Part shown: in pieces, positions 26,901-40,259 of the stretch
How positions within the stretch are numbered: position 1 is the stretch's first letter
Layout: each line of letters starts with the position of its first letter
DNA from: a virus
Virus record (IMG/VR): IMGVR_UViG_3300009182_000042
Coordinates: 1-64,000 of that record
Reading direction: 5' to 3' (one strand)
Length of the DNA: 64,000 nucleotides
Translations under genes and position numbers: made by a program
The notes under the pieces: model-generated
What the model was told of the DNA's origin: nothing
The model's input: only the letters and a program-made list of their open reading frames with translations
The model's database searches: none

Positions 26901-29900
26901 ATCAGTTACAATAAGCACTGTTTCAAGCGGTAGTATGACACTGACTGTGAATGCCGCTGGCGGAATTTGGGCAAACAATCAGTATTATATCAATACAATA
27001 CCAAGCTCTACCACATTCACTATTACCAATAGTTACAAGAGCGGTACAGCCTATACAATCACCAACACAGCCAGCAGTATGACTGCCACGGCAACATTTG
27101 GTCCTACTGCTACTGTGTTGTATTACAACAGTCCTATGATACATGGTAGTGTAACGTACAATGGCACACTGACCACAGTCAATGCCGCTGAGATTATTCG
27201 TGCCAACGTTGGATTTTTAAGTGCAGAAGCAACTGCATATGTGGCTGCCAGTTATGGCGGTTCAATTTCAAGCACAGCCGCAACAACAAACTTGATAACA
27301 ACTTCGGGCAATCACAACTTTACAGTTGGTGATCCTGTACAATTTAGTGGAAGTGTAGTTGGCGGGCTTAGTGCGGCAACAACTTATTATGTGTTGACTG
27401 TAAACAGCAACACAACATTCACAGTGTCGTTGACTCAAGTAAGCCAAGGTACACAAACGGCAGTGGCGCTAACAAATACAAGTAGTGCGTTCACTGTAAC
27501 TTATTTTAACACAGCACAAAGTTATATCACTTCATTCTTAAATGGAATGATCTACGACTTGCAATATACTGGAAACAGTAGAAGTTTGAGAGCTGTAGAG
27601 CTCTACAACAATGCTGTTGGTAGCTCCACTATCAGTAACATGTTCTTGGTACGTAATGGATCTGGACTTCGAAACATGACTTTGTCAGGTATTACAGGTA
27701 CCTTGAGTGCGGCAAATGCCTATGGTACAAAACGTCCAACAGGCGGTGCTTATACAAGCCTTGATCCAGGCTTTGGACCTAACGATACCAGTGTTCAAAT
27801 ATTGACACGCAGTACCTATGTACAAAATTGTACCATGTTTGGTTATGCCTGCGTGGGTGCAAAAGTTGACGGAGCACTGCATAGTGCGGGCAATAAGTCT
27901 ATTGTTTCTAACGATTATACTTGCGTTATCGGTGATGGTATTGGTTGGTGGAATACTGGCACTGGGTCTCTAGCAGAACTTGTTTCAGTTTTTAACTACT
28001 ACAGCTATTCAGGCTATCTAGCTGAGCTAGGTGGACGCATCCGTGCTACAAACGGTAACAGTTCTTATGGCACATACGGTGTGCTTGCCGAAGGTACTGA
28101 CACATTTGAAACTCCAATATATGCCAATTTAAATAACAGAGCGGCTGCCGCCACGATAACCACTGTGGTAACTGACAGCACTACACAGATTCTACGATTT
28201 GAATATGGTAATGCCGGTATCAACTATACAAATTCTGTTCCTACAGTTAACGGATCTGGTTACAACGCAGTGGCTTTCCAAGATGAATTCCGTGATGCCG
28301 CAGTATTTGAAACAAGATTGATTGATCCAAACAACACAGGATTAACTGGCGGAACAAGTTATGTGTCAGCAGTTAATGTGGGACAAACCAACGCCAACGG
28401 CGTGGGTTATCAACTGATTGCGGCTGCCGACACTGCACTAACTGGCGGGTATAATGGCATGAAGGTACAGATAACAGCTGGTACTGGTGTTGGACAAGTT
28501 GCTAATATTTTGGCTTTCAACAATGCCAGCAAATATGCACAAATTATTCGTCCAACATTTGCTACACTACCAGTGACAGCAAGTACAAATGCAACTGCCG
28601 CATCCAGCAGTAGTGCTTTCATAGCAACATATGCAGGAAGATATCCAACGCTGGTAGCACCTGTCATGGGATCAGGCTCTTATGTGGCCGGTATGTATCT
28701 AACTAGTAGCGGTACAGTCACAGCTGGTACATATATCACAGCAATCAACACTGGATCAATCACTAGTGCATCAATAGCCAGTTCAACATTTAGTTCAACT
28801 GGATCAATTGGCGCAAGTATTACCGGTGCTGGTACAGCAGCCAATCCATGGATAGCAACCATCACAGGTATGAGTAGCACCAGCAGTTTTGTAGTTGGTG
28901 CCCAGATCACTGCTACAAATGGTACAGGTACATTATACGGTAGCACTCCAACCAGTGTAATTGTAGCAAGTGTTCCAAGCACAACCAGTATCACATACAG
29001 CGTGATCGGCGGCACAATTCCCACAACAGGAACTGTTACCAACATTCAACAGACCATGTTGTCAGGCTCTGCATTTGCCAACTTGTTACCAGGTATGGTA
29101 CTAAGTGGTGGTAGTGTGATTGCTAGTTATGTTGCAGGACAGGTAACAGCTACTGGAACTGCACTGGCTACTGCCACAATGACTGGAACTATCAGTACAA
29201 ACACATTGACTCTAGCAACATTCACAGTTGGCTCAATTTACACAGTACAAGTTGGGCAATATGTTGCTCAAATTAGCGGAATACCAGCGGGCACATACAT
29301 AACCGCAGTGAACCCAGCAACTGGAGTGATAACAATTAACACAACATTGTATGGTGCAGTCAGTGGTAGCAACAGTACTTACACCGCAGGTGGTGCAGGC
29401 ACATATGCATTAACAGCTAACAGCTTTACAACAGTTACCGGCGCACCAACAACAGGTACTCAATATTTGTTGAATACTGCGCAGACTCAGATAGCCGCTA
29501 CTGTTACAGGCACACAGAACACATTAACTGTGGCCAGCAACGCATCGTTGTATAACACAATGCCGTTGTATCTTGGTACAGCAGTTGCACCGTTGAGTGG
29601 TGTTGCTATTTCGGCAACTGGAGCAATTTCATTTACCTCAACTACAACAGCACTACCAGCTAATACTCAAGTGGTTATTTCTGGTGCTAACGTTGGAACA
29701 GGCATAGTGGCGACAGGAACATTCTTTGTGGCTGCAAGCCCATCGCCAACAACAACTGGTGTAACATTATTAACTGCACTTTCTGGTGGTACAACTATCA
29801 GTACAACAGCAGGTACAGTGGTAACTAGCGGTAACTTATCCAGTGTCAATATTGGTTCAAGTGGTAACTTGACATTTACAGCATTAGGCGCGGCACTACC

Positions 29901-32900
29901 AGCAGGAACACCAGTTGTAATTAGTGGATCAAACGGTGGTGGTGGTACAATTGCCAACGGTACATACTATGTTGCTGTGACACCAACACCAACTTCAAGT
30001 GCAATAACATTGGTTACCACAAGCGGCGGCTCAACAAGCCCAACCACAACATCTGGTACTCCAAGCGGTTTGACATTTGCGTTTAGTTTGGTTAATCCAT
30101 TGACATTCACCTACACATTAACAGCACCGTTTGGATTATCTTCGTTTAGTGTGTACTACGTGAACGGCATCACCAACTCAAATGGCGCTGCCAGCACAAC
30201 ATTTAGTGTGACAACTACTGCATCTGGAACATCTCCAGTGGCAGTAAATTCTATTACAGGACAAAACGTGTCGCTGTATGCGGCTGGATGGGACCATGTG
30301 GTTCCAGGTAGTGTTATCAATAACACTACTGATTTGACATCAGCATACATTATAGAACCATCAATCAGCTATACAGGTCCAGGTTACACAGGCGTAGCAA
30401 GATCATTGGCAACCAGTGCCAGTTATGTGGGCGTTGCTTACGGTTCTGGAAACTATGTTGCTGTATCAACGGGCGCTACCACTACACAATATAGCACAAC
30501 TGGTCGTGCATGGGCCAACGGCGGCGCATTACCAAGTGCAACATCTTGGAATGCTGTAACATATGGCGGAGGCCAAGGCGCACAAGCCACAGTTACAGTT
30601 GGTGGTTTTGGCGGAAGCGGTGCAGTATTAACAGCAGTTGTGGTGGGCGGCCAAGTAACAGGCATTACTATTGTCAACGGTGGCTTCAACTATAACACAG
30701 TTCCAACAATCACCATTACTCCAGTCAGCGGAGGATCAGGTGCTTCGGCAATCTGTACAGTTCTAAATGGTACTATCACTACAGCTACCATGGTTATTAA
30801 TGGTTCTGGTTATGCTAGTGGTGCTACAGTTGCAGTGGTTACCAGTGCAGTTTCCGCAGTTACCACTGTCACACGAGGACAAAATTACGGATACAACAGC
30901 ACAACTCCATCTGTTACATTAAGTGCTCCATTTAGCGGCACAGTATGGAGCAGTGGTGGTAGTGGCACAAGTGGTAGTTACTACTATTTTGTGAATACTG
31001 GTGTAACTCCTAACGTAACCAACTACTATCAGGCCACAAGTACAGGTACATTTACCACAAGCGGCCCAACACATACCACCGGTACAGTGGCCAACAACAC
31101 AGTAAACTTGTTGTATGTGGGTACACAAGCCACAGTAACACCTACATTAACCAATAATGGTATCAGCAGTTATACAGTAACCGTAGCTGGATTTGGATAT
31201 TCAACTGTTCCTACAATTACTATTGCAGATTTGTCAGCAAGATTTGTGGCAATCAGCACAACAACAGCTGGTGCAAACGTGGCACCTACTGGAGTAGCAG
31301 GCGCATGGAATTCTATGACATTGCCAAGTGCAGGTTATAATGCAATTGCATATGGTCTAGGACAATATGTTGTAGTAGGCGGTACAGCCGGTGCAGGTAT
31401 TATAGCAAGCAGTAGCGATGGTATCAACTTCAATGCACGAACTGTTCCAGCAGGTGCATCAGCTCAGTATTTTAGTGCTGTGGCATACGGTTCTACAGGA
31501 ACAGGCGCATCTGGTAACACGTCAACTGGATTGTTTGTAGCCATACCTTTGTATGGTAACACACCTGTTACAAGTACAAACGGTACCACATGGGCGATTC
31601 CACAAACCGCAGGCGGATCCAATGTGACTTTGCCGGCTTCACTGGCATGGAGCGGGATTGCATATGGTAATGGTCGTTTTGTAGCAATTGCCAGCAATAG
31701 TTCTAGCATAGCTTACAGTCTTAACGGTGGCGGCGCTTGGAACTTGTCCACTGTTGCTGGAGGTTCTGGACTGCCAGGTGTTTACAGTTGGTCAAGTATT
31801 GCTTATGGTGAAGGTCAATTTGTGGCCATAGCCGCAAACAGTGCTGTAAGTGCTACCAGCTGGGACGGTATCAACTGGACTATACAGACATTACCAGCAA
31901 CACAAAACTGGAGCAGTGTGGCATTTGGTAACCCACTGGCCGCAACTATCGGATATAACCCGCTGTTTGTAGCAGTTGCAAATACTGCTGGAACATCTGC
32001 GGCTGTGATACATACTGGCGCAACGCCACAAGGCCGTGTCAAAGTAACTAGCAATGCAGTTAGTGAAATACGTGTGATTGAGCCAGGAAGTGGATTTGCA
32101 AAAGGTATTGTTACTGCAACAACCGCAACCACAAACGTTATCACAGCTGATAATATTGAAAACTTGTCAGCAAATCAACCAGTTGAGTTTAATACAGTAA
32201 GTGCAGGTGGGTTGGCTTTACAAACAACTTACTATGTGATTGGTTCCAGTATTACAACAACCTCAGCACCAGCCGGCACGTTCCAAGTGGCTACCACATC
32301 GGGTGGCACAGTACCAGTGACATTGACAACCACTTCACCAACCGGTATGACATACACAACTGGTCCTATAGTTACTATTACTGATCCAAACCGTATTAAT
32401 GCGGCATTGGTCAGAGTGCGTACAGGTGATGGAGTGCTTGGTAACCCTAGCTTTCCTAACAGAGGTGCTGCCAATGCAACTGCAACAGCAAACACAGTAG
32501 GTGACGGATATAGCGACATCTATCAGACCAGCACATTTATCAACATAAGCAATTTGTATACTTTACCAACTGCTGGTGCAAACGTGCAATTTGCATCAAT
32601 ATCAAATGTTTGGTACAAATTGGTTGCAGTGACAAACTTGTTGGGTATTCCAGGCAACTACACAGCCACATTCCAGATAAATCCAGGACTTAGCGTGTAT
32701 CTTGCTCCTACCACTGGTAATTTGATTACCACAAGATTGAAATACAGTCAGGTTCGCTTGACTGGACATGATTTCTTATATATCGGTACTGGAAACCAGA
32801 CACAGACAAATTATCCGTATGTCAATGTAAGTAGTGCAGTTTCTGCCAATCAAACATTGGGCAGTGTGGGTGGCCGTGTGTTCTTTACAAGTACAGACCA

Positions 32901-33315
32901 GGACGGCAACTTCAACGTTGGAAACTTGTTTGGAGTACAGCAATCAACAGGTACTGCTAGTTTGAACGCCAGTGCGTTTAACTTGGCTGGATTACAGAGT
33001 TTGACACTGGGAGCGGTATCAGTTGGTGTGGGATCCGCTACTATTACAAGTTTCAGTACTGATCCGTACTTTACTGCTAATAGTGACAACATTATTCCTA
33101 CGCAGAAAGCTATCAAGAGCTATATCACAGCCCAGATAGGTGGTGGTTCTAGTAGCTTGAACGTAAATACATTGACAGCGGGCGTGATATTCATTGGTAA
33201 TAATCAAATATATAACACTACCGGATATCAACAGATATACGTAAGCAGTAAAATGCTATTCACAGGTGGAATTGATGGGGCACCAGTTGCTCTTACATTC
33301 TTCGCACAAAGATAA
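20971..33315 (+). CDS. Giant tail fibre/baseplate structural protein (4114 aa), paralogue of 12843
   Basis: Same ordered blocks as 12843 (K.GR..F...G.W start, VKTGTY.E.LPI.VP, NMFL.RNG, GWDHV, YSQ.RLT.HDFL, RVFFTSTDQDGNF) with more inserted modules. Confidence 0.8.
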   Translation: MAEYKLGRIKFVYQGTWTGSSTYVVDDVVSVGGKTYICIVSNTSSAVFATDLASSYWSLVADGTRWTGTWANATYYQLGDQVLYGGIVYQATTAHTSATATATLTATGFTVSGGTATLTYASQVVQPFLVGATITLAGFTPTQTSGTVNTVNTTFTVVTCTTTQVTFALTGTYTVSVLGTVAGASQLGLELNQANWTAFASNINYLSTWSVNTRYKVNDLVTYGGYTYIATTAHVSANTTALGLEQDQAKWSTFNPGLSYQGAWSGSSVKYRLNDIVKYGASLFICTTAHVSSATFSTSNFATFVNGLQYVPGGSNAWSSATTYVTGDIVTYGGNLYVASQIASNQNPTTATTYWNLYTGGFSYQGAWTGVTSYKIGQVVNLGGYTYLALADNTQNVLTLTGTTVTTNIITLSASTTALVANLPVVFASTVGGLTGSQTYYVIGSSITANTFQVASISGGVSPVTLSTTTGQSVSVTTQPQPPFATYWSRLNSGIRYNPTTGTYNAVSATNVTGTGTSATFNVTASKTTYSVTLASGGSGYSSTGGSNTIKIVGTSLGGLSPANDITITITGQSSGAITTFTSVGYAVTWSTAVSYVLGDVVYFGSNSYICVSGHVSASGNKPDADTVGAYWNLLAAGNESAVLTVTGDLFYYGSTGPTRLPIGTDGQVLRVNSNTPSWAYYGQINNIVYVSSATGVDTLATSQGTTLDKPWRTIQFACQQVENGYLNLNLGNLIQINKQFLLKEVNNFVLYNYTFNITATTTSTNLITVGGSSTIAQTTTTNLYSNMPVVFNVTAGGLTAGTTYYVIGSSITSTQFQVATNPSTSGAQTAVTLSTTSTANLGQYVYSQSKTERDTGFIVDGIIFDITHTGNSKTIANALTYFNSAGTGYTSGVLAYDISPFVKALNYLSTLITSNVGANTAPGTNYQTTISSAVTVTGASGTGAIATITFSAQSYAYNVGSQITVASVSPAGYNGTYVVLSSTTTSVSYANTTTASYISGGTVNYTRATQQINTTYTAEAAALTRIPVLVGLVTAPLSLGNTTPITGILANATTTISVKTGTYNEVLPIVVPSYTVVYGDELRSSTVQPAVANITLANDKPKTIVALTRLQTQLGNLLQNTSITGSTGNTQYLSVSASTGAASVATLTFAAQTTAPFSVGQYITVSGFTSSAAGYNGSYAVTACTTTTVSYANATTASTSGSPIVSGQNTQLSVADVGSSTAVNTINTFTSSINNMIFNGIAQVPAISITTVTGYNSSFLPGHSTGVTQITSNYGFIKAELTAFMNTNYSSVWSSLGVAGQQIYLLQIQYILDGMQYDMAYGCNNQSIINGSSYYSLNINQIPLVNQPAYLATFQRLQAIVGQIVRAQSVAATAGNGATQTTGSDAGVAPAAFASARIADVIYWFTNGNANSTVNTITGSISGTTLTVSSQTSAVAPGTLLTGTGINGMYIVNQISSSAGAQAATTYSSGGGNGTSTFVVASATGIAAGQFITGTGIPAGTYVASTYSSGSTTVPIANYFGSPVTFTLQASGAYLFYPANTAGTYTLSITGGTGTAFTSLSTFTPVNSGAYTLVGSNALQLAYTQLQARATEIASDTQVFVAKYNQQYNISATLTSRDAGLIVNALSFDVLFTTNFNTIAVGRAFNRSNTSAQAVVNNVNNQLYATTAAINFIGFKAKMIAAAGGQVQAQTLIDDIIYRINGQATTTLTTATVSTNVLTASSTSAMAVNQPVSFTNLPANINTTVTSTLAAFAGSITATATVALTGVGTITSNGGGSFTFGTAQSAGTFYVGQVLTPTGSLSGITWTGYTAGTSYVVSVTNGTSTVTLTTVTGNVLTVTQGTASGITFNTYLATITTTGLVIGSAIALSSTGFGGLTTATTYYVIGFGPTASASCALSATAGGNSVALSNGSGTMIAQTTTNLLNLTGYVGTLGITVGQQCYFSGGTYAGISPYQLYYIVSASGTGITVSTTSGGSSVTISTVSSGSMTLTVNAAGGIWANNQYYINTIPSSTTFTITNSYKSGTAYTITNTASSMTATATFGPTATVLYYNSPMIHGSVTYNGTLTTVNAAEIIRANVGFLSAEATAYVAASYGGSISSTAATTNLITTSGNHNFTVGDPVQFSGSVVGGLSAATTYYVLTVNSNTTFTVSLTQVSQGTQTAVALTNTSSAFTVTYFNTAQSYITSFLNGMIYDLQYTGNSRSLRAVELYNNAVGSSTISNMFLVRNGSGLRNMTLSGITGTLSAANAYGTKRPTGGAYTSLDPGFGPNDTSVQILTRSTYVQNCTMFGYACVGAKVDGALHSAGNKSIVSNDYTCVIGDGIGWWNTGTGSLAELVSVFNYYSYSGYLAELGGRIRATNGNSSYGTYGVLAEGTDTFETPIYANLNNRAAAATITTVVTDSTTQILRFEYGNAGINYTNSVPTVNGSGYNAVAFQDEFRDAAVFETRLIDPNNTGLTGGTSYVSAVNVGQTNANGVGYQLIAAADTALTGGYNGMKVQITAGTGVGQVANILAFNNASKYAQIIRPTFATLPVTASTNATAASSSSAFIATYAGRYPTLVAPVMGSGSYVAGMYLTSSGTVTAGTYITAINTGSITSASIASSTFSSTGSIGASITGAGTAANPWIATITGMSSTSSFVVGAQITATNGTGTLYGSTPTSVIVASVPSTTSITYSVIGGTIPTTGTVTNIQQTMLSGSAFANLLPGMVLSGGSVIASYVAGQVTATGTALATATMTGTISTNTLTLATFTVGSIYTVQVGQYVAQISGIPAGTYITAVNPATGVITINTTLYGAVSGSNSTYTAGGAGTYALTANSFTTVTGAPTTGTQYLLNTAQTQIAATVTGTQNTLTVASNASLYNTMPLYLGTAVAPLSGVAISATGAISFTSTTTALPANTQVVISGANVGTGIVATGTFFVAASPSPTTTGVTLLTALSGGTTISTTAGTVVTSGNLSSVNIGSSGNLTFTALGAALPAGTPVVISGSNGGGGTIANGTYYVAVTPTPTSSAITLVTTSGGSTSPTTTSGTPSGLTFAFSLVNPLTFTYTLTAPFGLSSFSVYYVNGITNSNGAASTTFSVTTTASGTSPVAVNSITGQNVSLYAAGWDHVVPGSVINNTTDLTSAYIIEPSISYTGPGYTGVARSLATSASYVGVAYGSGNYVAVSTGATTTQYSTTGRAWANGGALPSATSWNAVTYGGGQGAQATVTVGGFGGSGAVLTAVVVGGQVTGITIVNGGFNYNTVPTITITPVSGGSGASAICTVLNGTITTATMVINGSGYASGATVAVVTSAVSAVTTVTRGQNYGYNSTTPSVTLSAPFSGTVWSSGGSGTSGSYYYFVNTGVTPNVTNYYQATSTGTFTTSGPTHTTGTVANNTVNLLYVGTQATVTPTLTNNGISSYTVTVAGFGYSTVPTITIADLSARFVAISTTTAGANVAPTGVAGAWNSMTLPSAGYNAIAYGLGQYVVVGGTAGAGIIASSSDGINFNARTVPAGASAQYFSAVAYGSTGTGASGNTSTGLFVAIPLYGNTPVTSTNGTTWAIPQTAGGSNVTLPASLAWSGIAYGNGRFVAIASNSSSIAYSLNGGGAWNLSTVAGGSGLPGVYSWSSIAYGEGQFVAIAANSAVSATSWDGINWTIQTLPATQNWSSVAFGNPLAATIGYNPLFVAVANTAGTSAAVIHTGATPQGRVKVTSNAVSEIRVIEPGSGFAKGIVTATTATTNVITADNIENLSANQPVEFNTVSAGGLALQTTYYVIGSSITTTSAPAGTFQVATTSGGTVPVTLTTTSPTGMTYTTGPIVTITDPNRINAALVRVRTGDGVLGNPSFPNRGAANATATANTVGDGYSDIYQTSTFINISNLYTLPTAGANVQFASISNVWYKLVAVTNLLGIPGNYTATFQINPGLSVYLAPTTGNLITTRLKYSQVRLTGHDFLYIGTGNQTQTNYPYVNVSSAVSANQTLGSVGGRVFFTSTDQDGNFNVGNLFGVQQSTGTASLNASAFNLAGLQSLTLGAVSVGVGSATITSFSTDPYFTANSDNIIPTQKAIKSYITAQIGGGSSSLNVNTLTAGVIFIGNNQIYNTTGYQQIYVSSKMLFTGGIDGAPVALTFFAQR

Positions 33316-33336
33316 AAATTTTGGAGAAATAATAAC

Positions 33337-33687
33337 ATGGCAACAGGACGATTTACAACACCACAAACAGCAGGGTCAGTACAGGTAACCAACTCAGGTT
33401 ACACTGTGCTGTATACTGTACCCAACAACACTTATAGCATTTTTAATGTGTCGTTAACCAATTCTAGTGCTAGTGCAGTTACAGTAAAACTGGCAATATG
33501 CACAACAGCCAACGTGGCATCCCCATTAGCATCAGACTTCATTGAAAGTTTGACTACTATTGTTGGGTATGGTGTATTTGAACGTACAGGTTTGGTAATG
33601 CAGGCAGGTTTGAACATTGTGTGTCAAGCCAGCGCGGCATCTACTGTAAACGCAACTGTGTACGGTATTGAAACATCAACACAATAA
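33337..33687 (+). CDS. Small virion structural protein
   Basis: TVLYTVP...FERTGLVM...VYGIE; related to 7356 and 12099. Confidence 0.72.
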   Translation: MATGRFTTPQTAGSVQVTNSGYTVLYTVPNNTYSIFNVSLTNSSASAVTVKLAICTTANVASPLASDFIESLTTIVGYGVFERTGLVMQAGLNIVCQASAASTVNATVYGIETSTQ

Positions 33688-33711
33688 TAGGAATACAAGA
33701 GAGAATAAATT

Positions 33712-35655
33712 ATGGCACGTTATAACAGCTCAGCAGTTGCTACACTAAGTTCGGCAACGGTTATCACAACTCCAAGTCAGGGGTTGTTGACAGAATTGGT
33801 CGGATCACCGCCTTATGCGGTGCAAATTCCCGATCCAACTATTTGGTATGGTCAAACACAGACCTACTATAATAACTCAGGAGGTGTTGTAACACTGAAT
33901 ACTCCTGCCGGTACATTTATTGGTCCAGGAAGTTCAGGCAGTTCAAGTTTACAGATGCCCAATCAAAGTGTTGTGGTATTGGCATCGGACACTACCAAAT
34001 ATGTTATCTCATCATTCGACGGCGGCCCAACTTATGCTCAAACTGGTAACGGTAACAGCAGTAGTTATGCATTGTTGTTGAACGGTGACTTGGTGCAAAG
34101 TGCATCAACCATGAACTTGGTCAACACCAACACCACAACTGTCAACGCATTTGGCGCAGCCACAAGTATCAATATTGGTGCTCCATTCAGCACAACAACC
34201 TTTAACGGCAGTGTGTTCGTCAAAGGCGGCTTGGTGCAAGTCAACTCCAGCAGTGTGTTGGTAGAAGATAAAAATATTGAAATTGGTTATATCAACCCTA
34301 TCAGCTACGGCGGCGGCACAATAACAACCATCGGTGGATCCATTTCCGGTTCAACCACATTTACCAGTATTAGTGGTACAAAGATTGCCGCAGGTTATAC
34401 TGGCACAGTGTCTGGTGTGAGTCAATTCAGCACCAGCGGTGCTGGCACTGGTGCAACATTCAACATCACCATAAGCGGTGCTGGCACAACATACACTGGT
34501 GTTACCACAATTACGGTGGTCGCCGGCGGCGTGGGTTATGCACTGGGTGATACTGTAACCATTGGTGGTAGTGTGTTTGGCGGCTCAAGTGCCAACGGTA
34601 CCAACAACCTGACATTCACAATCAGCAACGTGAACGCCAGTCCTTGGTATGCCACAATTACAGGCATAACCAACACCACCAACTTGGTGGTAGGCAGCGC
34701 AATCAGTGCCACAAACGGTACTGGTAGTTTTGGTTCTGGTAATACTTCTCAGTTGGTTTTGAGCAATCTAAGTAGTACCAGCATACAGATTGTGGTCACA
34801 GGCGGCACAACGCCAGTAGCGGGTACAGTTACCAATATTACACCGGGTTCCAACGATGCTTATGCCAATGACGGTGGTATCAAGCTGTATGGCTCAACAA
34901 ACAAAACACTGATTTGGTCGCTGAATTCAGTTGGACCAACCAGTGGCAATACTGGCCAACCATCATGGACCACCAGCGAAGGCTTGTCTTTCAGAAGTGC
35001 CACTGCCAGTAACTTTGGTATCCAAACATACCCTGGATCGGGCACTGGTTTTAACATATTAACCAACGGTGTAACCAACGGCACAGTCAACATTGCTACT
35101 GATGCAGTAACTAATAACCTGTTCACAGCTGGTACTGCAAACACCATTGGTGCATCTGGATCTGGCACAACTACTATTAGAAATACCACTTTAACATTCA
35201 GCGGTACCACTCTAAATGCAACTGCCATGACCAACTTCAACGGTAAAACTACTGGTTGTTTCATGTATATTGGTAGCCTGGCTATTGGTACAACCAACAA
35301 TCCAGGTGACGGTCAGATCAATGCAACCAGCAACATCATAGCGTATTACTCAGACGACAGACTAAAAACACGATTGGGCACCATTGAAAATGCTCTTGAA
35401 AAATTGGAAACACTAACTGGTTTCTACTATGAAGCCAACGAAACAGCACAGGCACTGGGTTACAAATCAGTGCGTGAAGTAGGTGTGTCAGCCCAAGATG
35501 TGCAAAAGATCCTACCAGAAATTATCAAGCCAGCACCTATTGACGCTAAGTACATGACAATTCAATACGAAAAGTTAACACCATTAGTAATTGAAGCAGT
35601 TAAGGAACTGAGTGCCATGGTAAAAGAGTTGAAAGCCAAGATTGATAAGGAATAA
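33712..35655 (+). CDS. Tail fibre with C-terminal intramolecular chaperone (peptidase S74)
   Basis: C-terminal YYSDDRLK...GVSAQDVQKILPE...YEKLTPLVIEAVKEL followed by a coiled coil, the classic S74 autocleaving chaperone pattern. Confidence 0.88.
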   Translation: MARYNSSAVATLSSATVITTPSQGLLTELVGSPPYAVQIPDPTIWYGQTQTYYNNSGGVVTLNTPAGTFIGPGSSGSSSLQMPNQSVVVLASDTTKYVISSFDGGPTYAQTGNGNSSSYALLLNGDLVQSASTMNLVNTNTTTVNAFGAATSINIGAPFSTTTFNGSVFVKGGLVQVNSSSVLVEDKNIEIGYINPISYGGGTITTIGGSISGSTTFTSISGTKIAAGYTGTVSGVSQFSTSGAGTGATFNITISGAGTTYTGVTTITVVAGGVGYALGDTVTIGGSVFGGSSANGTNNLTFTISNVNASPWYATITGITNTTNLVVGSAISATNGTGSFGSGNTSQLVLSNLSSTSIQIVVTGGTTPVAGTVTNITPGSNDAYANDGGIKLYGSTNKTLIWSLNSVGPTSGNTGQPSWTTSEGLSFRSATASNFGIQTYPGSGTGFNILTNGVTNGTVNIATDAVTNNLFTAGTANTIGASGSGTTTIRNTTLTFSGTTLNATAMTNFNGKTTGCFMYIGSLAIGTTNNPGDGQINATSNIIAYYSDDRLKTRLGTIENALEKLETLTGFYYEANETAQALGYKSVREVGVSAQDVQKILPEIIKPAPIDAKYMTIQYEKLTPLVIEAVKELSAMVKELKAKIDKE

Positions 35656-36176
35656 TGATGTCAGATCAAGACAATAATCAGCCAGTCGATCCAAAAGCAA
35701 TCCAACCGCAGACCATTACTGGCGGTACTATTTCGTTCGCCAACATTACAGCTGAAATTGGGCAGGGTAACAGCAATGTGGGTTTGCAATTTTTGAACAC
35801 CTATGTTGCACCCAGTCTAACTGGATATTTTCAAAATGCTCCCAACGGTGGCAACTGTGTGGGCTACAATAGCAACTGCGGGTCAACTCCACGTCCCACA
35901 TTCCGTAGCACATATCCTGACATGAACGAATTTAGGAACTTAACTTATTTCAATAGTCAAAACAAGGGACAATGTAACAACGGTAATTGTACCAACAACA
36001 ACTGTAACTGCGGAAATATCGCCTGCTACAACTGTACTATCAATGGTCGTATTAACTGTCAGAATTGTGACGGACAAGCATGGCTACAAGCTAATTGTAA
36101 CTGCGCCTGTACAATGAATTGTAATTATACCAGCTACAGCGTGGCTTGTAATTGCAACTGCAATTGTAATTGTTAA
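35655..36176 (+). CDS. Asn-Cys-rich protein; candidate radical SAM substrate and fibre-tip protein
   Basis: 19 Cys, 17 of them in the last 67 aa, 15 as Asn-Cys; ends ACNCNCNCNC; coupled to the fibre gene by a TAATG overlap. Confidence 0.75.
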   Translation: MMSDQDNNQPVDPKAIQPQTITGGTISFANITAEIGQGNSNVGLQFLNTYVAPSLTGYFQNAPNGGNCVGYNSNCGSTPRPTFRSTYPDMNEFRNLTYFNSQNKGQCNNGNCTNNNCNCGNIACYNCTINGRINCQNCDGQAWLQANCNCACTMNCNYTSYSVACNCNCNCNC

Positions 36177-36193
36177 TACACTAAAGGTAACCC

Positions 36194-37651
36194 ATGAAAT
36201 TTGAAATATTAGCATCACGGAACAAAGACGACGAGAAGATATTTTATTACGATAACCAAACAAACACGCTGAGTGACGAAACTGGGTTTGTTTATGAGTA
36301 TCCCCATGCTCTGGCCAGTGTTACACATACTCACGTACAAAAACCCTATGTTAGTTTTGATAAAGATCGTCCTCTTAAAAAATCTAAATCCGCACGTATA
36401 GTAAAAATTCAGATGGGGCTTAGTTGCAATTACAGTTGTGACTATTGCAGTCAGAAATTTGTAGAACGTCCAAAAGAAACCAACGCCAAAGATATTGAAA
36501 ATTTTATGGAACTGTTCAACAACCTGGAGTTTGATGAACAACAGGGACTAAAGGTGGAGTTCTGGGGCGGCGAGCCGTTTGTGTATTGGAAAACCATGAA
36601 GCCCCTGGCTGAAGCGATTGCAGATCGTTTTGAAAGCTGGCAGAAAAAACCCATGTTCAGTGTGATTACTAATGGTAGTCTATTGACTGAAGAAATCTGT
36701 GCATGGTTATACAGCATGAATTTCAGTATAGCTATCAGTCATGATGGCCCTGGTCAGCATGTGCGTGGTCCAGATCCATTTGATGATCCAAAAAAGCGTG
36801 AAATTGTGTTGGACCTTTATCAGATTCTTAGACCTTTAGATCGTATCAGTTTCAACAGCATGCTCAACAGCAAGAACACCAGTCGCAAAGAAATTTATGA
36901 TTGGTTTGTGGAATTCACCAACGATCCAAGTGTTGTACTGGGCGAAGGTGCATTTGTTGATGCATATGATGCAGATGGTTTAGAAAACTCAATGAAAACC
37001 AAAGCTGAACATTTTGCTTTTAGACAACGTGCTTTCGGAGAAATTTATGGCTCCGCTGGTGATATTGGATTCACCGGCATCCTACAAAAAGTAGATAATT
37101 TTACTGAAGCTGTGCTTACACATAAAAATGCAGAATTTTTAGGGCAGAAATGCGGTATGGACGACGAGGGTGTTATAGCATTTGACCTAAAAGGCAATGT
37201 TATTACCTGTCAAAACGTCAGTGCATTGGAGATTGGCAAAAACGGTGAATCGCATCTGGGTGGAAACCTTGCAGATCTAGACAGTGTGGAAATCAAAACT
37301 GCCACTCACTGGAGCAATCGTAAAGAATGTAGCGGTTGCCCAGTGCTACATATTTGTCAAGGGGCTTGTATGTTCCTAGACGGTGAATATTGGACTGCCA
37401 GTTGCAACAATGCATATAGTGATGCTATTCCCCTGTTTGCCACCAGCATTATGAAAATAACCAACGGGTATATTCCTATGACTGTAAAAAGTGAAGAATT
37501 GCCCTTAGAAAGACAGGATATCTTTGGGACTATGATGAAACACCAAGAATGGACACCAAAAAAGATAATCCCCATCAAAGTTGTAAGCGAAAAAGTAGCT
37601 GTTATTGACAATGTCGAAGTCTACGGACAAAGCACTGTGATAAATAGTTAA
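36194..37651 (+). CDS. Radical SAM enzyme with SPASM domain (peptide/protein maturase-like)
   Basis: CNYSCDYC (CxxxCxxC), FWGGEP, ITNG, ISHDG; full seven-Cys SPASM pattern Cx13Gx4C...Cx2Cx5Cx3C-x11-C. Confidence 0.92.
   Translation: MKFEILASRNKDDEKIFYYDNQTNTLSDETGFVYEYPHALASVTHTHVQKPYVSFDKDRPLKKSKSARIVKIQMGLSCNYSCDYCSQKFVERPKETNAKDIENFMELFNNLEFDEQQGLKVEFWGGEPFVYWKTMKPLAEAIADRFESWQKKPMFSVITNGSLLTEEICAWLYSMNFSIAISHDGPGQHVRGPDPFDDPKKREIVLDLYQILRPLDRISFNSMLNSKNTSRKEIYDWFVEFTNDPSVVLGEGAFVDAYDADGLENSMKTKAEHFAFRQRAFGEIYGSAGDIGFTGILQKVDNFTEAVLTHKNAEFLGQKCGMDDEGVIAFDLKGNVITCQNVSALEIGKNGESHLGGNLADLDSVEIKTATHWSNRKECSGCPVLHICQGACMFLDGEYWTASCNNAYSDAIPLFATSIMKITNGYIPMTVKSEELPLERQDIFGTMMKHQEWTPKKIIPIKVVSEKVAVIDNVEVYGQSTVINS
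37641..37646 (+). promoter_or_regulatory. Putative late promoter (TAAATA)
   Basis: At the 3' end of the rSAM gene, upstream of the AAGGAG SD of 37674. Confidence 0.45.
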
Positions 37652-37673
37652 AGAGAGCACAAGGAGCCATAAA

Positions 37674-38654
37674 ATGAATTTGTATATTTCCACACATTGT
37701 CGTAGATATTATGCTGTTGAAGCAGTTGTTACCTCTGAAGGGATCGAATATAAAACTTATCCAGCATATCTAATATCAGAACTGAAAAAATACTGGGCCT
37801 CCTTGGCAAACAGTGGTATTCCGGGTACTTTGATTTTTGATGATCAACATCCTATGATTACCCCTGATATGAAACCACTGTGGACTACAGATACTGTTGC
37901 TGTGTATGATGTGCAAGTTGCAAACAACACCTATACCAGCGGAGTTATAGATTTTCAATTGGATATAAAAAATAATAATGATTATAGCGATCATGCACAA
38001 TACGATATATATTCTCCAGGGTGCCTGGCTGTAACAACGGTATTTGACGAACATAGAGACAAACATAGCAATGATATTATGAGCTATAGCGCAATGACCA
38101 AAGCACAGACAGTATCCAACGGTATATCTAGAGGCTACATGATTCCGATACATAACTCTGTGGCACAAACATCTCATTCAAGAATGAAGCCGCATGTGCA
38201 TCAGCGTTTGACAGGCAATGCACCTATGATCAGCATCATGGTTCCACTAGCAGACATGGACCCAACAGATTGGGAGATTGTGTTCACTGTGGCAGAAGAA
38301 GGACTGCTACGTGTGAACGGCAATACTGTTGAACCAATTCCAGTGGGATACCTATTGAATCATATGCCTAAAGTATGGTTTAAGAAAAACACTGCCACCG
38401 TAAACACTAATAATTTTGTTGATTTAGAATTTTATTTAGGCACTGCTAGCGGAAGCCCGATTACTGGCCACGATGCAACAGTGTATATCAAAACCACTGG
38501 CGGCCAACTCAATAAAACTCAAGTGCGAACAGTTAACGGAGAAGGTAAAGTGAAACTGATTTCAAATCATTTGGAATCAGGCGATGTTATCAAAGTAAGT
38601 GTTGGCTTTCAATACTATTCCGGCACAGATGATTGTATTGTTACAGTCAAATAA
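37674..38654 (+). CDS. Hypothetical protein with a probable C-terminal Ig-like (Big_1-like) domain
   Basis: SD present. The C-terminal ~95 aa (ATVYIKTTGGQL...VRTVNGEGKVKL...IKVSVG) resembles bacterial Ig-like folds. Confidence 0.6.
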   Translation: MNLYISTHCRRYYAVEAVVTSEGIEYKTYPAYLISELKKYWASLANSGIPGTLIFDDQHPMITPDMKPLWTTDTVAVYDVQVANNTYTSGVIDFQLDIKNNNDYSDHAQYDIYSPGCLAVTTVFDEHRDKHSNDIMSYSAMTKAQTVSNGISRGYMIPIHNSVAQTSHSRMKPHVHQRLTGNAPMISIMVPLADMDPTDWEIVFTVAEEGLLRVNGNTVEPIPVGYLLNHMPKVWFKKNTATVNTNNFVDLEFYLGTASGSPITGHDATVYIKTTGGQLNKTQVRTVNGEGKVKLISNHLESGDVIKVSVGFQYYSGTDDCIVTVK

Positions 38655-38660
38655 CATGGC

Positions 38661-39827
38661 ATGAAACTGGCCATAATAGGCGATGGCAAAGCCAGTGCCA
38701 TAGCAATACTAACAGTTCTAGATCTAGTAAAAAATAAAAATTACACAGATCTAGAACTTTTTATTTTGCACGATACTATACGTGCCAACGACCAGTTGGC
38801 AACCGCTGCCAATCCTGTGTTAAATCGATTGCTCAAAAATGTGATTAACTTTAATGATCACGCGGACATTAAAAAAATACAAGGCAGCATGAGACTAGGA
38901 ATCAGCCACACGTGGCACGATGACTCGTTGGCCAAATGCTGGATACAATCTCCAAGTCCGGGTCTACATTTTAATGGTAATATTTTCTTTGATTTTGTAG
39001 TAGAGTCAGTATGTAATCTTTATGCGAATGTCACTTATCAAACTGGGAAAATGCGAAAATTAAATCAGTCTGATCAGTATGCCACGGTGTCACTGGACGA
39101 AACTGAATTGCTATTTGATTATGTAATAGACACAACCGGATTAGATCAGACCAATTATACAGTACCGGACTTTGCTCCAGTAGACAAAATAATAACAGCC
39201 GAAACTAAAAATTCCTATAATGAATCGCATACATCGATTACATTCCATGACAATGGCTACAGTTTAGGAATACCACTAGTAGGCAAGAAAGTTGTATATT
39301 ATTTTTATAACAGTAAAATTATCAATGTAGATCAAGCAGTGGACAATTTTAATCAAATTGCCAGTTTAAATACCGATCCTCAATTGAAAGATTTCAATCC
39401 CAGATATAAAAAATACAGTATAAATGATAGAATCATATATGCAGGACCCGGTTTGTTCTATATGGAGCCAATACAGGCATTGCCCTTTCACTTTTATCAA
39501 GATACAATAAAAATAATATTGTCTAATCTCATGTTAGAAAATTATAACAAATCGTTAGACATAGAAGCTAATCAAGGTTATATTACCAACATGGAATTAA
39601 AACAAGACTTGATTGCACTTACCTATCATAATAAAAATAATTATTCATCAGAATTTTGGAAACAAGCTAGAGATAACAGTAAAAAATACTTGTCGCAGTC
39701 AGAGCATTTTAAAAAATTTGTAGATAATTATAAAAATACAGGTAATTTAGAATATGATTTGCATGACAACAAAGTGGCCGTGAAATATATCACAGGCTTG
39801 GGCATAGATCTAGATAAGATCTACTAA
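38661..39827 (+). CDS. Tryptophan-halogenase-like flavoprotein, divergent
   Basis: KLAIIGDGKAS Rossmann-like start, FDYVIDTTG, GYSLGIPL (in place of WxWxIP), FYMEPIQA and SEFWK, in the family order. Confidence 0.65.
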   Translation: MKLAIIGDGKASAIAILTVLDLVKNKNYTDLELFILHDTIRANDQLATAANPVLNRLLKNVINFNDHADIKKIQGSMRLGISHTWHDDSLAKCWIQSPSPGLHFNGNIFFDFVVESVCNLYANVTYQTGKMRKLNQSDQYATVSLDETELLFDYVIDTTGLDQTNYTVPDFAPVDKIITAETKNSYNESHTSITFHDNGYSLGIPLVGKKVVYYFYNSKIINVDQAVDNFNQIASLNTDPQLKDFNPRYKKYSINDRIIYAGPGLFYMEPIQALPFHFYQDTIKIILSNLMLENYNKSLDIEANQGYITNMELKQDLIALTYHNKNNYSSEFWKQARDNSKKYLSQSEHFKKFVDNYKNTGNLEYDLHDNKVAVKYITGLGIDLDKIY

Positions 39828-40259
39828 ATCAAATACAGTTTGCAATTTGGTACGTATAGTTTTACTGCTAAAACTGTTTCGTAACCCTTGATGTAGGGGT
39901 TTAGGTGCGCGGTCGATCACGGTCCACGCCCATCCCAGGTGTTCATCGCTCAATATGGGAACAAATTCCGTTTCAACCACGCACAGATATGTGTGAAAAT
40001 TAAACACACGGTCGTTGGATACAAATGTTTCTAACGGAATAGTTTTAAGTAGTGATGGTATACTGCCAATTTCTTCTGTAATTTCACGTTGAAGTCCTTG
40101 CCATGGAGTTTCGCCATGCACATTGGTACCACCCACTAAACCCCACGTGCCTTCATGTTTGCCTGATTTCTTTTGCAATAGCAAAAATCTCTTGGTGGCC
40201 TTGGCATAGAACAGCGCACCACTACAAACTATTTGGTCTTTTATAATACGATTTTCCAT
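39810..40259 (-). CDS. NUDIX hydrolase
   Basis: Nudix box G-TNVHG-E-TPWQGLQ-REITEEIG. Confidence 0.88.
   Translation of the reverse strand: MENRIIKDQIVCSGALFYAKATKRFLLLQKKSGKHEGTWGLVGGTNVHGETPWQGLQREITEEIGSIPSLLKTIPLETFVSNDRVFNFHTYLCVVETEFVPILSDEHLGWAWTVIDRAPKPLHQGLRNSFSSKTIRTKLQTVFDLVDLI

What the first reader, a model, noticed from the sequence alone, without database searches (positions are those of the whole stretch)
35655..36176. Cys-rich ORF looks like a fibre-tip adhesin fused to a RiPP-like core
Seen: a bipartite protein. The N-part has GTISFANITAEIG...PDMNEFRNLTY. The C-part (35973-36173) has 17 Cys in 67 aa with many NxxC registers (NGNC, NNNC, NIAC, NCNC, NCAC) and ends (NC)4. Codons vary (AAC/AAT, TGT/TGC), so this is not a slippage microsatellite. 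Known: in T2/S16-type phages the gene after the chaperone-bearing gp37 fibre encodes the tip adhesin gp38. From recollection, G.IS...I..E.G...[MF]..F motifs begin small proteins downstream of S74 fibres. Inference: the N-domain docks on the fibre trimer or acts as a leader, and the Cys-rich part is modified and displayed. Alternative: a metallothionein-like Zn/Fe-binding tip.
Basis: partly seen in the sequence, partly recalled or inferred. Interest (0 to 1): 0.8.

Follow-up and report, generated by a model that had tools for sequence, protein, structure and literature searches.

The report
Radical-SAM-paired Asn-Cys phage fibre-tip protein
A small protein of a giant freshwater phage, encoded right behind a tail-fibre gene, joins a fibre-type adaptor to an asparagine/cysteine-rich knob that always travels with an iron-sulfur radical enzyme, so the phage probably cross-links a fibre tip chemically.

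Summary
Window 35655-36176 (+) encodes a 173-aa two-part protein. Its last 67 residues hold 17 Cys and end in (NC)4.

It belongs to a conserved phage family absent from Pfam, NCBIfam and PHROGs.

- The Cys/Asn module is paired with an ortholog of the adjacent radical SAM/SPASM gene. This holds in 79 of 80 viral loci and 5 of 5 bacterial loci. In the reverse direction it holds in 74 of 80.
- In 80 control loci whose proteins carry the same N-terminal module but another C-terminal domain, the enzyme is absent: 0 of 80.
- That N-module heads at least 469 protein clusters, some with lectin-type ends. It is often encoded directly behind S74-chaperone fibres, as here.
- The modelled enzyme is closest to the thioether synthase CteB.

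Best reading: a fibre-docked tip protein whose knob the enzyme cross-links, probably through Cys thioethers. The chemistry, virion location and docking are all inferred.

Rivals are metal binding, formylglycine formation, a released peptide, and a non-virion role.

This scan has noted the same module on other DNA. My literature searches found no paper on it.

The parts
33712..35655 (+). 647-aa tail fibre with a C-terminal S74 intramolecular-chaperone domain. Its stop codon overlaps the start of the Cys-rich ORF.
   Evidence: Pfam PF13884 at residues 547-604, E 9.5e-10. 13 of its 17 PHROG matches are tail families. Local S74 HMM hit at residues 534-644. TAATG overlap seen.
35655..36176 (+). The finding: a 173-aa Asn/Cys-rich protein made of an N-terminal adaptor module and a Cys/Asn module.
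35709..35969 (+). N-terminal module (residues 19-105). It is preceded by an 18-residue extension, and a 28-residue insert within it holds two further NC dipeptides. Both are shared with the closest relatives.
   Evidence: N-domain HMM match at residues 20-104, E 1.1e-16. AF2 pLDDT is about 75-80 for residues 20-50 and 85-100. The profile finds 469 protein clusters.
35973..36173 (+). Cys/Asn module (residues 107-173): 17 Cys, mostly in NC dipeptides, one CxxC-x7-CxxC, one aromatic position (W143), and a terminal (NC)4 at 36150-36173.
   Evidence: Cys-domain HMM match at residues 101-172, E 1.3e-24.
36194..37651 (+). 485-aa radical SAM/SPASM enzyme, the inferred maturase. It starts 17 nt after the Cys-rich ORF.
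   Evidence: Pfam Radical_SAM. NCBIfam best hits PapB 1.8e-20 and QhpD 8.3e-19, both far below cut-off. phrog_1802 4.5e-63. Ten invariant Cys: three in CxxxCxxC and seven in the SPASM part. AF2 pLDDT 88.8. VIA-align best match CteB, Z 23.9.
37674..38654 (+). 326-aa protein of unknown family that follows the enzyme; a possible accessory.
   Evidence: No Pfam, NCBIfam or PHROG hit. Homologs directly after the enzyme in 10 of 80 enzyme-anchored loci. Homologous to Ralstonia phage RSP15 ORF047, E 5e-9.
38661..39827 (+). 388-aa flavin-dependent Trp-halogenase-like protein. It is part of the cassette in only one sub-lineage.
   Evidence: Pfam PF04820 6.9e-15. phrog_2928 1e-31. Best solved relatives LooH, PrnA and RebH at about 6e-5. 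Present in 8 of 80 enzyme-anchored loci and absent from the two closest relatives.
33337..33687 (+). 116-aa ORF before the fibre gene; syntenic context only.
   Evidence: Homologs in the same position in 9 of 80 enzyme-anchored loci. No family hit.

Best explanation
The ORF encodes a small accessory protein of the tail fibre.

Residues 19-105 form an adaptor module. Many phages place this module at the N-terminus of small proteins encoded just behind S74-chaperone fibres. It probably docks the protein onto the fibre end that S74 self-cleavage exposes. This step is inferred.

Residues 107-173 form an Asn/Cys-rich knob. It is the dedicated protein substrate of the adjacent CteB-like radical SAM/SPASM enzyme. 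That relation is inferred from near-obligate, domain-specific gene pairing.

The enzyme most likely turns several Cys thiols into thioether cross-links, probably to carbons of neighbouring Asn. This would brace the knob and its (NC)4 tail covalently inside the reducing host cytoplasm, where disulfides do not form. The chemistry is inferred by analogy with NxxcB, PapB, QhpD, CteB and CrpC.

In this sub-lineage a 326-aa partner and a halogenase-like flavoprotein may act on the same protein. That is speculative.
For: Pairing
- An enzyme ortholog (42-93% identity) lies next to the Cys-module gene, on the same strand, in 79 of 80 viral loci. The one miss ends about 150 nt past the gene.
- The same holds in 5 of 5 bacterial-genome loci.
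- In reverse, 74 of the best 80 enzyme-anchored loci hold the Cys module. All 6 misses are cut at contig ends, and one of them is known to hold it.

Specificity control
- 80 loci anchored on proteins with the same N-module but other C-terminal domains hold 0 enzymes and 0 Cys modules.

Enzyme class
- It has CxxxCxxC plus seven invariant SPASM cysteines.
- The best structural match is the thioether synthase CteB: Z 23.9, 354 residues aligned from model residue 1.
- The best NCBIfam hits are PapB and QhpD.

Fibre link
- In the window the S74 fibre's stop codon overlaps the ORF start.
- An S74 ORF ends within 11 nt of the Cys-module gene's start, or is fused to the gene, in 17 of 27 non-CSK viral loci. 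In the Polynucleobacter and Paraburkholderia loci an S74 ORF overlaps the gene start by 3 and 54 nt.
- 9 of 82 database relatives carry a fused S74 domain.
- Other family members, and the Achromobacter phage JWF fibre gp028, end the Cys run in a Hint self-cleaving domain.
- The Ralstonia phage RSP15 fibre next to a 46%-identical enzyme ends in an NCQC motif.

N-module
- It heads 469 protein clusters.
- Non-Cys members carry F5/8 type C, fibrinogen C, Gly_rich_2 or NEW3 domains.
- 45 of 77 such loci have an S74 ORF upstream. For 20 of 83 N-module ORFs (the 77 loci hold 83) that S74 ORF ends within 150 nt.

Selection
- dN/dS is about 0.03 in the Cys part.

Precedents in print
- NxxcB makes a Cys-Asn beta-thioether (PMC9389541, passages).
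- CrpC cross-links a Cys-rich protein (PMC13692751, abstract and passages).
- QhpD cross-links QhpC (PMC7876137, passages).
Against: - No data here show a modification, a virion location or binding to the fibre.
- AF2 does not fold the Cys module (pLDDT under 50).
- All 53 CSK-type loci and 10 of 23 stand-alone loci lack a directly adjacent S74 fibre. The CSK type sits in a cassette of oxygenase-like genes and ends in a hydrophobic segment. That could mean a non-virion role for much of the family.
- The Cys module is the most conserved part of the protein, unlike typical receptor-binding tips.
- CxC runs and a CxxC-x7-CxxC fit plain metal binding.
- The enzyme scores far below the cut-off of every characterised family (73 bits against 340 for PapB), so its chemistry cannot be transferred.
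- The formylglycine-forming anSMEcpe is nearly as close structurally (Z 20.1; best Foldseek E-value).
Confidence: 0.55

Rival explanations
1. The Cys module is a metal-thiolate domain of metallothionein or zinc-ribbon type, or an Fe-S site, at a fibre tip. The radical SAM enzyme does not cross-link it; it supplies or needs the metal centre, or acts on another residue.
For: About 25% Cys, with 7 CxC and a CxxC-x7-CxxC. AF2 fails on the apo chain, as it often does for metal-dependent folds. From recall, not tested here: metal sites in phage fibres and tail tips are known, such as the iron ions in the T4 gp37 needle and an Fe-S cluster in lambda gpL. The CrpA authors also consider metal binding (PMC13692751, passage).
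Against: Metal binding alone does not explain the near-obligate, domain-specific pairing with a CteB-like enzyme. It also does not explain why Asn at -1 of Cys is conserved as strictly as the Cys itself (73% against a 24% background). No metallothionein family hit in Pfam or NCBIfam.
Confidence: 0.15
2. The enzyme works like anaerobic sulfatase-maturing enzymes. It oxidises Cys to formylglycine or another non-cross-link product, giving a reactive aldehyde-rich tip.
For: anSMEcpe is the best Foldseek match (E 1.2e-11) and reaches Z 20.1 in VIA-align. anSME acts on whole proteins. The JWF homolog was annotated as a sulfatase-maturating enzyme by its depositors.
Against: The NCBIfam sulfatase_rSAM score is 53 bits against a cut-off of 349. 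The anSME alignment starts only at model residue 66, whereas CteB and TigE align from residue 1. There are seven invariant SPASM Cys, not eight. Eight is called canonical in PMC13692751 (passage); from recall, anSME has both auxiliary clusters fully Cys-ligated and CteB has an open site. I saw no sulfatase-type Cys motif in the substrate sequence.
Confidence: 0.08
3. The protein is a precursor of a released RiPP-type natural product, such as a bacteriocin, signal or metallophore. The N-part would be the leader and the Cys part the core.
For: It has a leader-plus-core-like layout next to a SPASM maturase. CSK-type relatives lie beside 2OG oxygenases, an Asp/Asn beta-hydroxylase and, in one locus, an MFS transporter.
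Against: No protease or transporter was recognised among the genes scanned, from orf116 (33337) to the Nudix gene (40259). The N-part is a general module that occurs without the enzyme in 80 of 80 control loci and heads lectin-type proteins. Family members carry C-terminal S74 or Hint self-cleaving domains typical of fibres. The ORF start overlaps the stop codon of a fibre gene.
Confidence: 0.07
4. The module has an intracellular or membrane-associated role during infection and is not part of the particle. Its place next to fibre genes would reflect cassette insertion into a variable region.
For: 53 of 80 family loci are of the CSK type, with a hydrophobic C-end and no adjacent S74 fibre. A paper on pelagimyophages notes radical SAM cassettes as variable additions in the host-recognition cluster (PMC7029224, passage).
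Against: Start-stop overlap with S74 fibre genes recurs in unrelated phage types: a T4-like jumbo phage here, a lambda-like prophage in Polynucleobacter, and Paraburkholderia. True fibres carry the Cys run before a Hint domain.
Confidence: 0.1

Closest known systems
CrpC/CrpA of Methanococcus voltae (Dieter et al. 2026, PMC13692751; abstract and passages read)
   Same: A SPASM radical SAM enzyme is encoded beside a Cys-rich protein, not a short peptide. The protein has an N-terminal recognition region and C-terminal Cys repeats. Ranthionine thioether cross-links were shown by mass spectrometry.
   Different: It is archaeal and cellular, with a 17-residue repeat and a C-x-x-Q/D motif rather than NC dipeptides. 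It has no link to phages ('phage' occurs 0 times in the text). Sequence relation to the window proteins was not tested here.
QhpC/QhpD/QhpG of quinohemoprotein amine dehydrogenase (PMC7876137; passages read)
   Same: A small Cys-rich protein subunit is cross-linked by a SPASM radical SAM enzyme (Cys to Asp/Glu). It is then modified at one Trp by a flavoprotein of halogenase-like fold. The window has the same three kinds of gene, and the protein has a single Trp (W143).
   Different: The QhpD model scores 67.6 bits against a cut-off of 453. The window flavoprotein is nearest to the Trp halogenases PrnA and RebH, and QhpG is not among its listed PDB hits. The acceptor would be Asn, not Asp or Glu. 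The halogenase-like gene is present in only 8 of 80 enzyme-anchored loci.
NxxcB/NxxcA streptococcal RaS-RiPP (PMC9389541; passages read)
   Same: A radical SAM enzyme forms a beta-thioether from Cys to Asn within NxxC. The window protein has 10 NxxC motifs.
   Different: NxxcA is a short quorum-regulated peptide. In the phage family Asn is enriched at -1 (73%) more than at -3 (37%). None of the 25 NCBIfam families shown for the enzyme (of 47 matched) is an NxxcB model, so membership could not be scored.
CteB (SCIFF maturase, PDB 5wgg/5why) and PapB (ranthipeptide maturase, NF047865)
   Same: CteB gives the best structural match over the whole length, including the N-terminal domain (Z 23.9). 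PapB gives the best sequence-family hit (1.8e-20).
   Different: Identity to CteB is 14-15%. The PapB score is 73 bits against a cut-off of 340. Their substrates are short leader-dependent peptides.
T-even gp38-type tail-fibre adhesins (T2, S16; recalled, not tested beyond Pfam)
   Same: A small gene lies directly after a fibre gene that carries a removable C-terminal chaperone. It has an adaptor-plus-binding-domain logic.
   Different: No Pfam hit to any family, gp38 families included. The C-terminal part is Cys/Asn-rich rather than Gly-rich, is highly conserved rather than hypervariable, and is tied to an enzyme.

Membership tests
Radical SAM/SPASM peptide or protein maturases (neighbouring gene 36194-37651) | CxxxCxxC radical SAM cluster motif | tested here: met
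   C78, C82 and C85 are invariant in 42 orthologs. Pfam PF04055 scores 36.2 bits against a cut-off of 29.5.
Radical SAM/SPASM peptide or protein maturases (neighbouring gene 36194-37651) | C-terminal SPASM domain with Cys ligands for two auxiliary clusters | tested here: met
   Seven invariant Cys: C320, C339, C379, C382, C388, C392 and C404. The fold aligns through residue about 424 with CteB, ChlB and anSMEcpe. Cluster content itself was not tested.
Radical SAM/SPASM peptide or protein maturases (neighbouring gene 36194-37651) | N-terminal substrate-recognition (RRE-type) domain | tested here: inconclusive
   The model has three strands and one helix in residues 1-44. The CteB and TigE alignments start at model residue 1. 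Only alignment ranges were seen, not a domain-level match.
PapB ranthipeptide maturases (NF047865) | Score at or above the curated cut-off of the equivalog model | tested here: not met
   73.4 bits against 340.
QhpD (TIGR03906) | Score at or above the curated cut-off | tested here: not met
   67.6 bits against 453; only residues 70-187 match.
Anaerobic sulfatase-maturing enzymes (TIGR03942) | Score at or above the curated cut-off | tested here: not met
   53.1 bits against 349.45. Structural similarity is Z 20.1 from residue 66 on.
RiPP precursor peptides | Core region co-encoded with, and specific to, its maturase | tested here: met
   79 of 80, 5 of 5 and 74 of 80 loci show the pairing. The control without the Cys module gives 0 of 80.
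RiPP precursor peptides | Dedicated leader plus a leader protease or exporter giving a released small peptide | tested here: not met
   The N-part is a general module found without the enzyme. No protease or transporter was recognised among the cassette genes scanned. Release itself cannot be tested here.
NxxcA-type substrates | Repeated NxxC motif as the cross-link site | tested here: inconclusive
   The window protein has 10 NxxC motifs. Family-wide, Asn is at -3 in 37% and at -1 in 73% of Cys. The cross-link sites are unknown.
gp38-type fibre-tip adhesins | Sequence membership in the Pfam gp38 families | tested here: not met
   0 Pfam families at E <= 0.01.
gp38-type fibre-tip adhesins | Gene directly downstream of a fibre with a removable C-terminal chaperone | tested here: met
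   The stop of the S74 fibre gene overlaps the ORF start. The arrangement recurs in 17 of 27 non-CSK loci.
gp38-type fibre-tip adhesins | Physical attachment to the fibre tip and receptor binding | not testable with these tools
   This needs virion proteomics, cryo-EM or binding assays.
Metallothioneins and zinc-ribbon-type metal domains | Sequence membership in a known family | tested here: not met
   No Pfam or NCBIfam hit. No PDB sequence hit better than E 0.32.
Metallothioneins and zinc-ribbon-type metal domains | Stoichiometric metal binding by the Cys | not testable with these tools
   CxC and CxxC-x7-CxxC motifs are present. Metal analysis is needed.

The most novel reading that the evidence does not exclude
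Phages staple a virion fibre-tip protein with radical chemistry. A dedicated CteB-like radical SAM/SPASM enzyme would install several Cys-Asn thioether bridges in a displayed Asn/Cys knob, acting as a cytoplasm-compatible substitute for disulfides. In this sub-lineage a halogenase-like flavoprotein would further modify the single conserved Trp, in a QhpC/D/G-like sequence. Virion proteins would then join the substrates of RiPP-type enzymes. The adaptor module would define a large family of exchangeable tip proteins for S74-processed fibres.
Probability: 0.3. Interest if true: 0.9.

Novelty: new variant of a known kind. Interest (0 to 1): 0.77.

Why it matters
If the reading holds, enzymatic radical cross-linking would be part of building phage particles. 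As far as I know and could find, it has been described only for peptide natural products and a few cellular proteins.

It would identify a widespread module: at least 545 enzyme relatives in IMG/VR. It occurs in freshwater jumbo phages and in prophage-like loci of Polynucleobacter and Paraburkholderia genomes. More distant enzyme homologs (about 45% identity) sit beside Cys-tailed fibres in cultured Achromobacter and Ralstonia phages.

The cultured phages JWF and RSP15 make the question directly testable.

It would also name a common N-terminal adaptor for small proteins encoded behind S74-chaperone fibres. That would help annotate host-recognition regions.

Heavily cross-linked small knobs could also serve as stable binding scaffolds.

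Tried and rejected
- tblastn of the 173-aa protein against 50,697 phage records found no match at E <= 1e-3.
- blastn of neighbouring baseplate-region DNA against the same records found nothing, so no named relative is known.
- Pfam, NCBIfam and PHROGs gave no family for the 173-aa protein.
- A PDB sequence profile search gave only chance-level rows, E >= 0.32.
- The AF2 monomer built on a 68-row alignment had mean pLDDT 52.3, with the Cys module under 50. Foldseek with that model found no match.
- Homotrimer prediction (complex prediction, 3 copies, alignment A2) gave 'no answer', score 0.00. It counts neither for nor against trimer formation.
- Profile comparison of the family with JWF gp028 aligned only 22 columns, in the add-on domain. 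JWF shares the Cys run and the Hint domain, not the whole module.
- An ESM Atlas search with the CSK add-on domain returned only unnamed viral clusters, best score 0.90.
- The promoter and terminator scan of 33000-40400 was at background level.
- RNA-library contigs of three lake studies match the stretch exactly: 35539-35843 across the fibre/ORF junction, 36241-36505, 36349-36484 and 34949-35187. The tool warns that DNA can be present in such libraries, so I do not count this as proof of transcription. Uncovered parts mean nothing.
- I considered an N-x-C glycosylation sequon and rejected it, because Asn is at -2 of Cys in only 4% of cases.
- I considered that the halogenase-like gene is an essential part of the module and rejected it. 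It is absent from the two closest relatives and present in 8 of 80 enzyme-anchored loci.

Literature. Five searches found no paper describing this module:
- (radical SAM + tail fiber + cysteine-rich + phage): 0 papers
- 4 papers
- 4 papers
- 9 papers
- 50 papers, 15 listed

PMC7029224 mentions radical SAM cassettes in a pelagimyophage host-recognition cluster (passage). PMC12801897 calls a cyanophage radical SAM maturase an antibiotic-synthesis gene (passages). PMC10288494 has no mention of phages. For PMC12373016 I saw only the search listing. Supplements were not opened and may hold gene lists that bear on this.


Full report
**What is there**

Window 35655-36176 (+) is an ORF of 173 aa. Its ATG overlaps the TAA of the preceding 647-aa gene. 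That gene ends in an S74 intramolecular-chaperone domain (PF13884, E 9.5e-10), and 13 of its 17 PHROG matches are tail families.

A 485-aa radical SAM gene starts 17 nt after the ORF. It is followed by a 326-aa gene of unknown family and a 388-aa Trp-halogenase-like gene. A 4114-aa fibre-like gene lies upstream, at 20971-33315.

The window belongs to an IMG/VR record of 84 kb that CheckV rates 23% complete, so the phage is probably very large. Near-identical DNA occurs in freshwater metagenomes, including a run that is not the likely source sample.

**The observation**

- Residues 107-173 contain 17 Cys. With residue 106 added, those 68 residues hold 20 Asn.
- The whole protein has 15 NC dipeptides, 10 NxxC and 7 CxC.
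- The chain ends in (NC)4.
- Cys and Asn codons are mixed.
- Tandem Repeats Finder reports only a weak 6-nt array over the last 28 nt.

The composition is not a chance or low-complexity effect. The Cys part has dN 0.024 and dS 0.97 against one relative, and dN 0.042 and dS 1.37 against another. Across 23 family members 20 columns are invariant, 10 of them Cys and 7 Asn.

In the family, Asn precedes Cys directly in 73% of cases against a 24% background. Asn at -3 reaches only 37%. The repeated unit is therefore NC rather than NxxC.

**A family with four C-terminal endings**

The large protein database returned 82 relatives at E <= 0.01. IMG/VR returned 155, of which 80 loci were fetched. All share three features:
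- a short N-terminal module;
- a Cys/Asn module of about 70 residues;
- a final run of alternating Cys.

They differ after that run. Among the 80 viral loci:
- 23 stop there, as the window does;
- 2 continue into an S74 chaperone;
- 2 continue into a Hint self-cleaving domain (Pfam Hom_end_hint);
- 53 continue into an unnamed domain of about 170 residues that begins with SKIIC and ends in a hydrophobic segment. I call this the CSK type.

Nine of the 82 database relatives carry PF13884. Pfam, NCBIfam and PHROGs contain no model for the family.

**Pairing with the enzyme**

- tblastn found an ortholog of the window's radical SAM protein beside the Cys-module gene in 79 of the 80 loci. Identity is 42-93%, mostly 55-65%. 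The ortholog is on the same strand and usually 5-80 nt away. The single miss ends about 150 nt after the gene.
- A scan of one genome per prokaryote species found five loci: Polynucleobacter, Paraburkholderia, and MAGs of Lishizhenia, Saccharimonadales and Hyphomicrobiaceae. All five have the enzyme adjacent.
- Starting from the enzyme instead, at least 545 IMG/VR stretches encode relatives. Of the best 80 loci, 74 hold a Cys-module ORF. The six misses are all cut by contig ends, and one of them (L028) is known from the first scan to hold it.

**A control that separates the two halves**

A profile of the N-module alone found 469 protein clusters at E <= 1e-3, almost always matching at residues 1-60.

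Of the best 147 fetched, 82 have a Cys-rich stretch and 65 do not; some of the 65 are fragments. Ten non-Cys members were scanned. They carry F5/8 type C, fibrinogen C, Gly_rich_2 or NEW3 domains and match two unnamed PHROGs through the N-module.

I then fetched 80 viral loci anchored on such non-Cys proteins. None holds the enzyme and none holds a Cys module.

So the enzyme follows the Cys/Asn module, not the N-module. This weakens the idea that the N-part is a dedicated leader.

**Link to fibres**

- An S74 ORF ends within 11 nt of the Cys-module gene's start (mostly within 3 nt), or is fused to the gene, in 17 of the 27 non-CSK viral loci. In the Polynucleobacter and Paraburkholderia loci an S74 ORF overlaps the gene start by 3 and 54 nt. 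This is the case in none of the 53 CSK loci.
- In the control set, 45 of 77 loci have an S74 ORF upstream on the same strand. For 20 of 83 N-module ORFs it ends within 150 nt.
- The enzyme has 45-46% identical homologs in Ralstonia phage RSP15 and Achromobacter phage JWF, each just after fibre genes.
- JWF fibre gp028 carries an Asn-Cys run immediately before a Hint domain.
- RSP15 fibre ORF048 ends in an NCQC motif.

The recurring picture is a fibre, or a small protein behind a fibre, whose end is a Cys ladder with this enzyme next to it.

**The enzyme**

- It has CxxxCxxC and seven further invariant Cys in the C-terminal part. A passage of PMC13692751 calls eight the canonical number.
- NCBIfam places it nearest to PapB (1.8e-20), QhpD, geopeptide, nif11 and CcpM maturases, all far below cut-off.
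- The AF2 model is confident, with pLDDT 88.8.
- VIA-align ranks CteB first: Z 23.9, 354 residues, from model residue 1. Then come ChlB (20.8), anSMEcpe (20.1, from residue 66) and TigE (18.4).
- Foldseek puts anSMEcpe and CteB level.

So it is a peptide- or protein-modifying SPASM enzyme of a new subfamily. Cys-directed chemistry is the common theme of its nearest relatives.

**Mechanism proposed**

Shown here:
- the architecture;
- the selection on the Cys part;
- the pairing and its domain specificity;
- the enzyme class.

Inferred:
- The enzyme cross-links Cys thiols to nearby carbons, most plausibly of the conserved Asn. NxxcB does this for Cys-Asn (PMC9389541, passages), QhpD for Cys-Asp/Glu (PMC7876137), and CrpC on a whole protein (PMC13692751).
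- The N-module docks the product on the S74-processed fibre.

Such bridges would give a compact, covalently braced end made in the reducing cytoplasm.

**The window's sub-lineage**

Eight loci with 70-74% identical enzymes repeat the whole cassette:
- the 116-aa ORF;
- an S74 fibre;
- a Cys protein of 125-133 aa;
- the enzyme;
- the 326-aa homolog;
- the halogenase-like gene.

In the five of them whose proteins I printed (L091, L093-L096), the tail runs to three to six NC repeats.

The 326-aa protein is also related to RSP15 ORF047 (E 5e-9).

The window protein has one Trp, W143. That position is aromatic in 67 of 68 family members. This recalls QhpC/D/G, but three points weigh against the parallel:
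- the flavoprotein is nearest to PrnA and RebH;
- an earlier first-reader note (not checked here) calls its flavin motifs degenerate;
- the gene is missing from the two closest relatives.

**What argues against the reading**

- Nothing here shows a modification, a particle location or binding.
- The Cys module is not folded by AF2.
- It is the most conserved part of the protein.
- Its CxC and CxxC-x7-CxxC motifs suit metals.
- The CSK type makes up two thirds of the sampled family. It lies in a cassette with 2OG oxygenases, an Asp/Asn beta-hydroxylase and a desaturase-like gene, without an adjacent fibre.

The family may therefore serve more than one role.

**Novelty**

Five literature searches gave no description of the module. 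The nearest statement in print is a remark on radical SAM cassettes in a pelagimyophage host-recognition cluster (PMC7029224).

Earlier notes of this scan describe the same pairing on other genomes. I used them as leads for the Crp and Qhp papers and checked those papers myself.

Noticed in passing
window 20971-33315 (+): An ORF of 4114 aa, rich in Thr, Ser, Gly and Ala, lies upstream of the fibre genes. Several relatives with the same gene order carry ORFs of about 2120 aa followed by an ORF of about 78 aa in the corresponding place (L029, L050, L057, L071).
   Followed up: no
L005-L028 and other CSK-type loci (e.g. L024:6516-13087, L010:2281-8271): The CSK-type relatives sit in a conserved cassette. 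The order is enzyme, Cys protein, 2OG-Fe(II) oxygenase, a 121-aa protein, one or two 181-aa proteins, sometimes a fatty-acid-desaturase-like gene, then an Asp/Asn beta-hydroxylase-like gene (PF05118). The 121-aa, 181-aa and hydroxylase families occur only with the CSK type (43-48 of 53 loci). An Asn hydroxylase next to an Asn-rich protein is suggestive.
   Followed up: partly
L066:7872-8867, L072:1646-2554, L002:3679-5130: The Cys run is followed at once by a Hint (Hom_end_hint) domain. Self-cleavage there would leave the Cys ladder as the new C-terminus, possibly through a thioester.
   Followed up: partly
L099:311-1405: A 364-aa protein combines the N-module, a Gly-rich domain and the Cys/Asn module. 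The Cys module can therefore be appended to another tip domain.
   Followed up: no
L234:3860-5503, L198:3299-5398: Three N-module genes stand in tandem, with an S74 ORF upstream on the same strand (ending 2 nt before the first gene in L234, 618 nt in L198). They look like a set of exchangeable tip proteins.
   Followed up: no
window 38661-39827 (+) and 39810-40259 (-): The halogenase-like gene is shorter than PrnA (388 aa against 538), and only about residues 81-358 align. Its 3' end overlaps the convergent NUDIX gene by 18 nt.
   Followed up: partly
window 36150-36173; L091, L093-L096: The length of the terminal NC run differs among close relatives, from three to six repeats. Tandem Repeats Finder sees a weak 6-nt period there, so the tail length may change by slippage even though the codons are mixed.
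   Followed up: partly
window 35539-35843, 36241-36505, 36349-36484, 34949-35187: Contigs from three lake-water RNA libraries match these stretches without a mismatch. One contig bridges the junction between the fibre gene and the Cys-rich ORF. DNA carry-over cannot be excluded.
   Followed up: partly
L029:10470-12966, L037:10191-12742: Stand-alone-type loci share genes of about 245, 373 and 215 aa downstream of the enzyme. The 373-aa one has a weak PP-loop hit and the 215-aa one a cupin hit. They may be further tailoring genes.
   Followed up: partly
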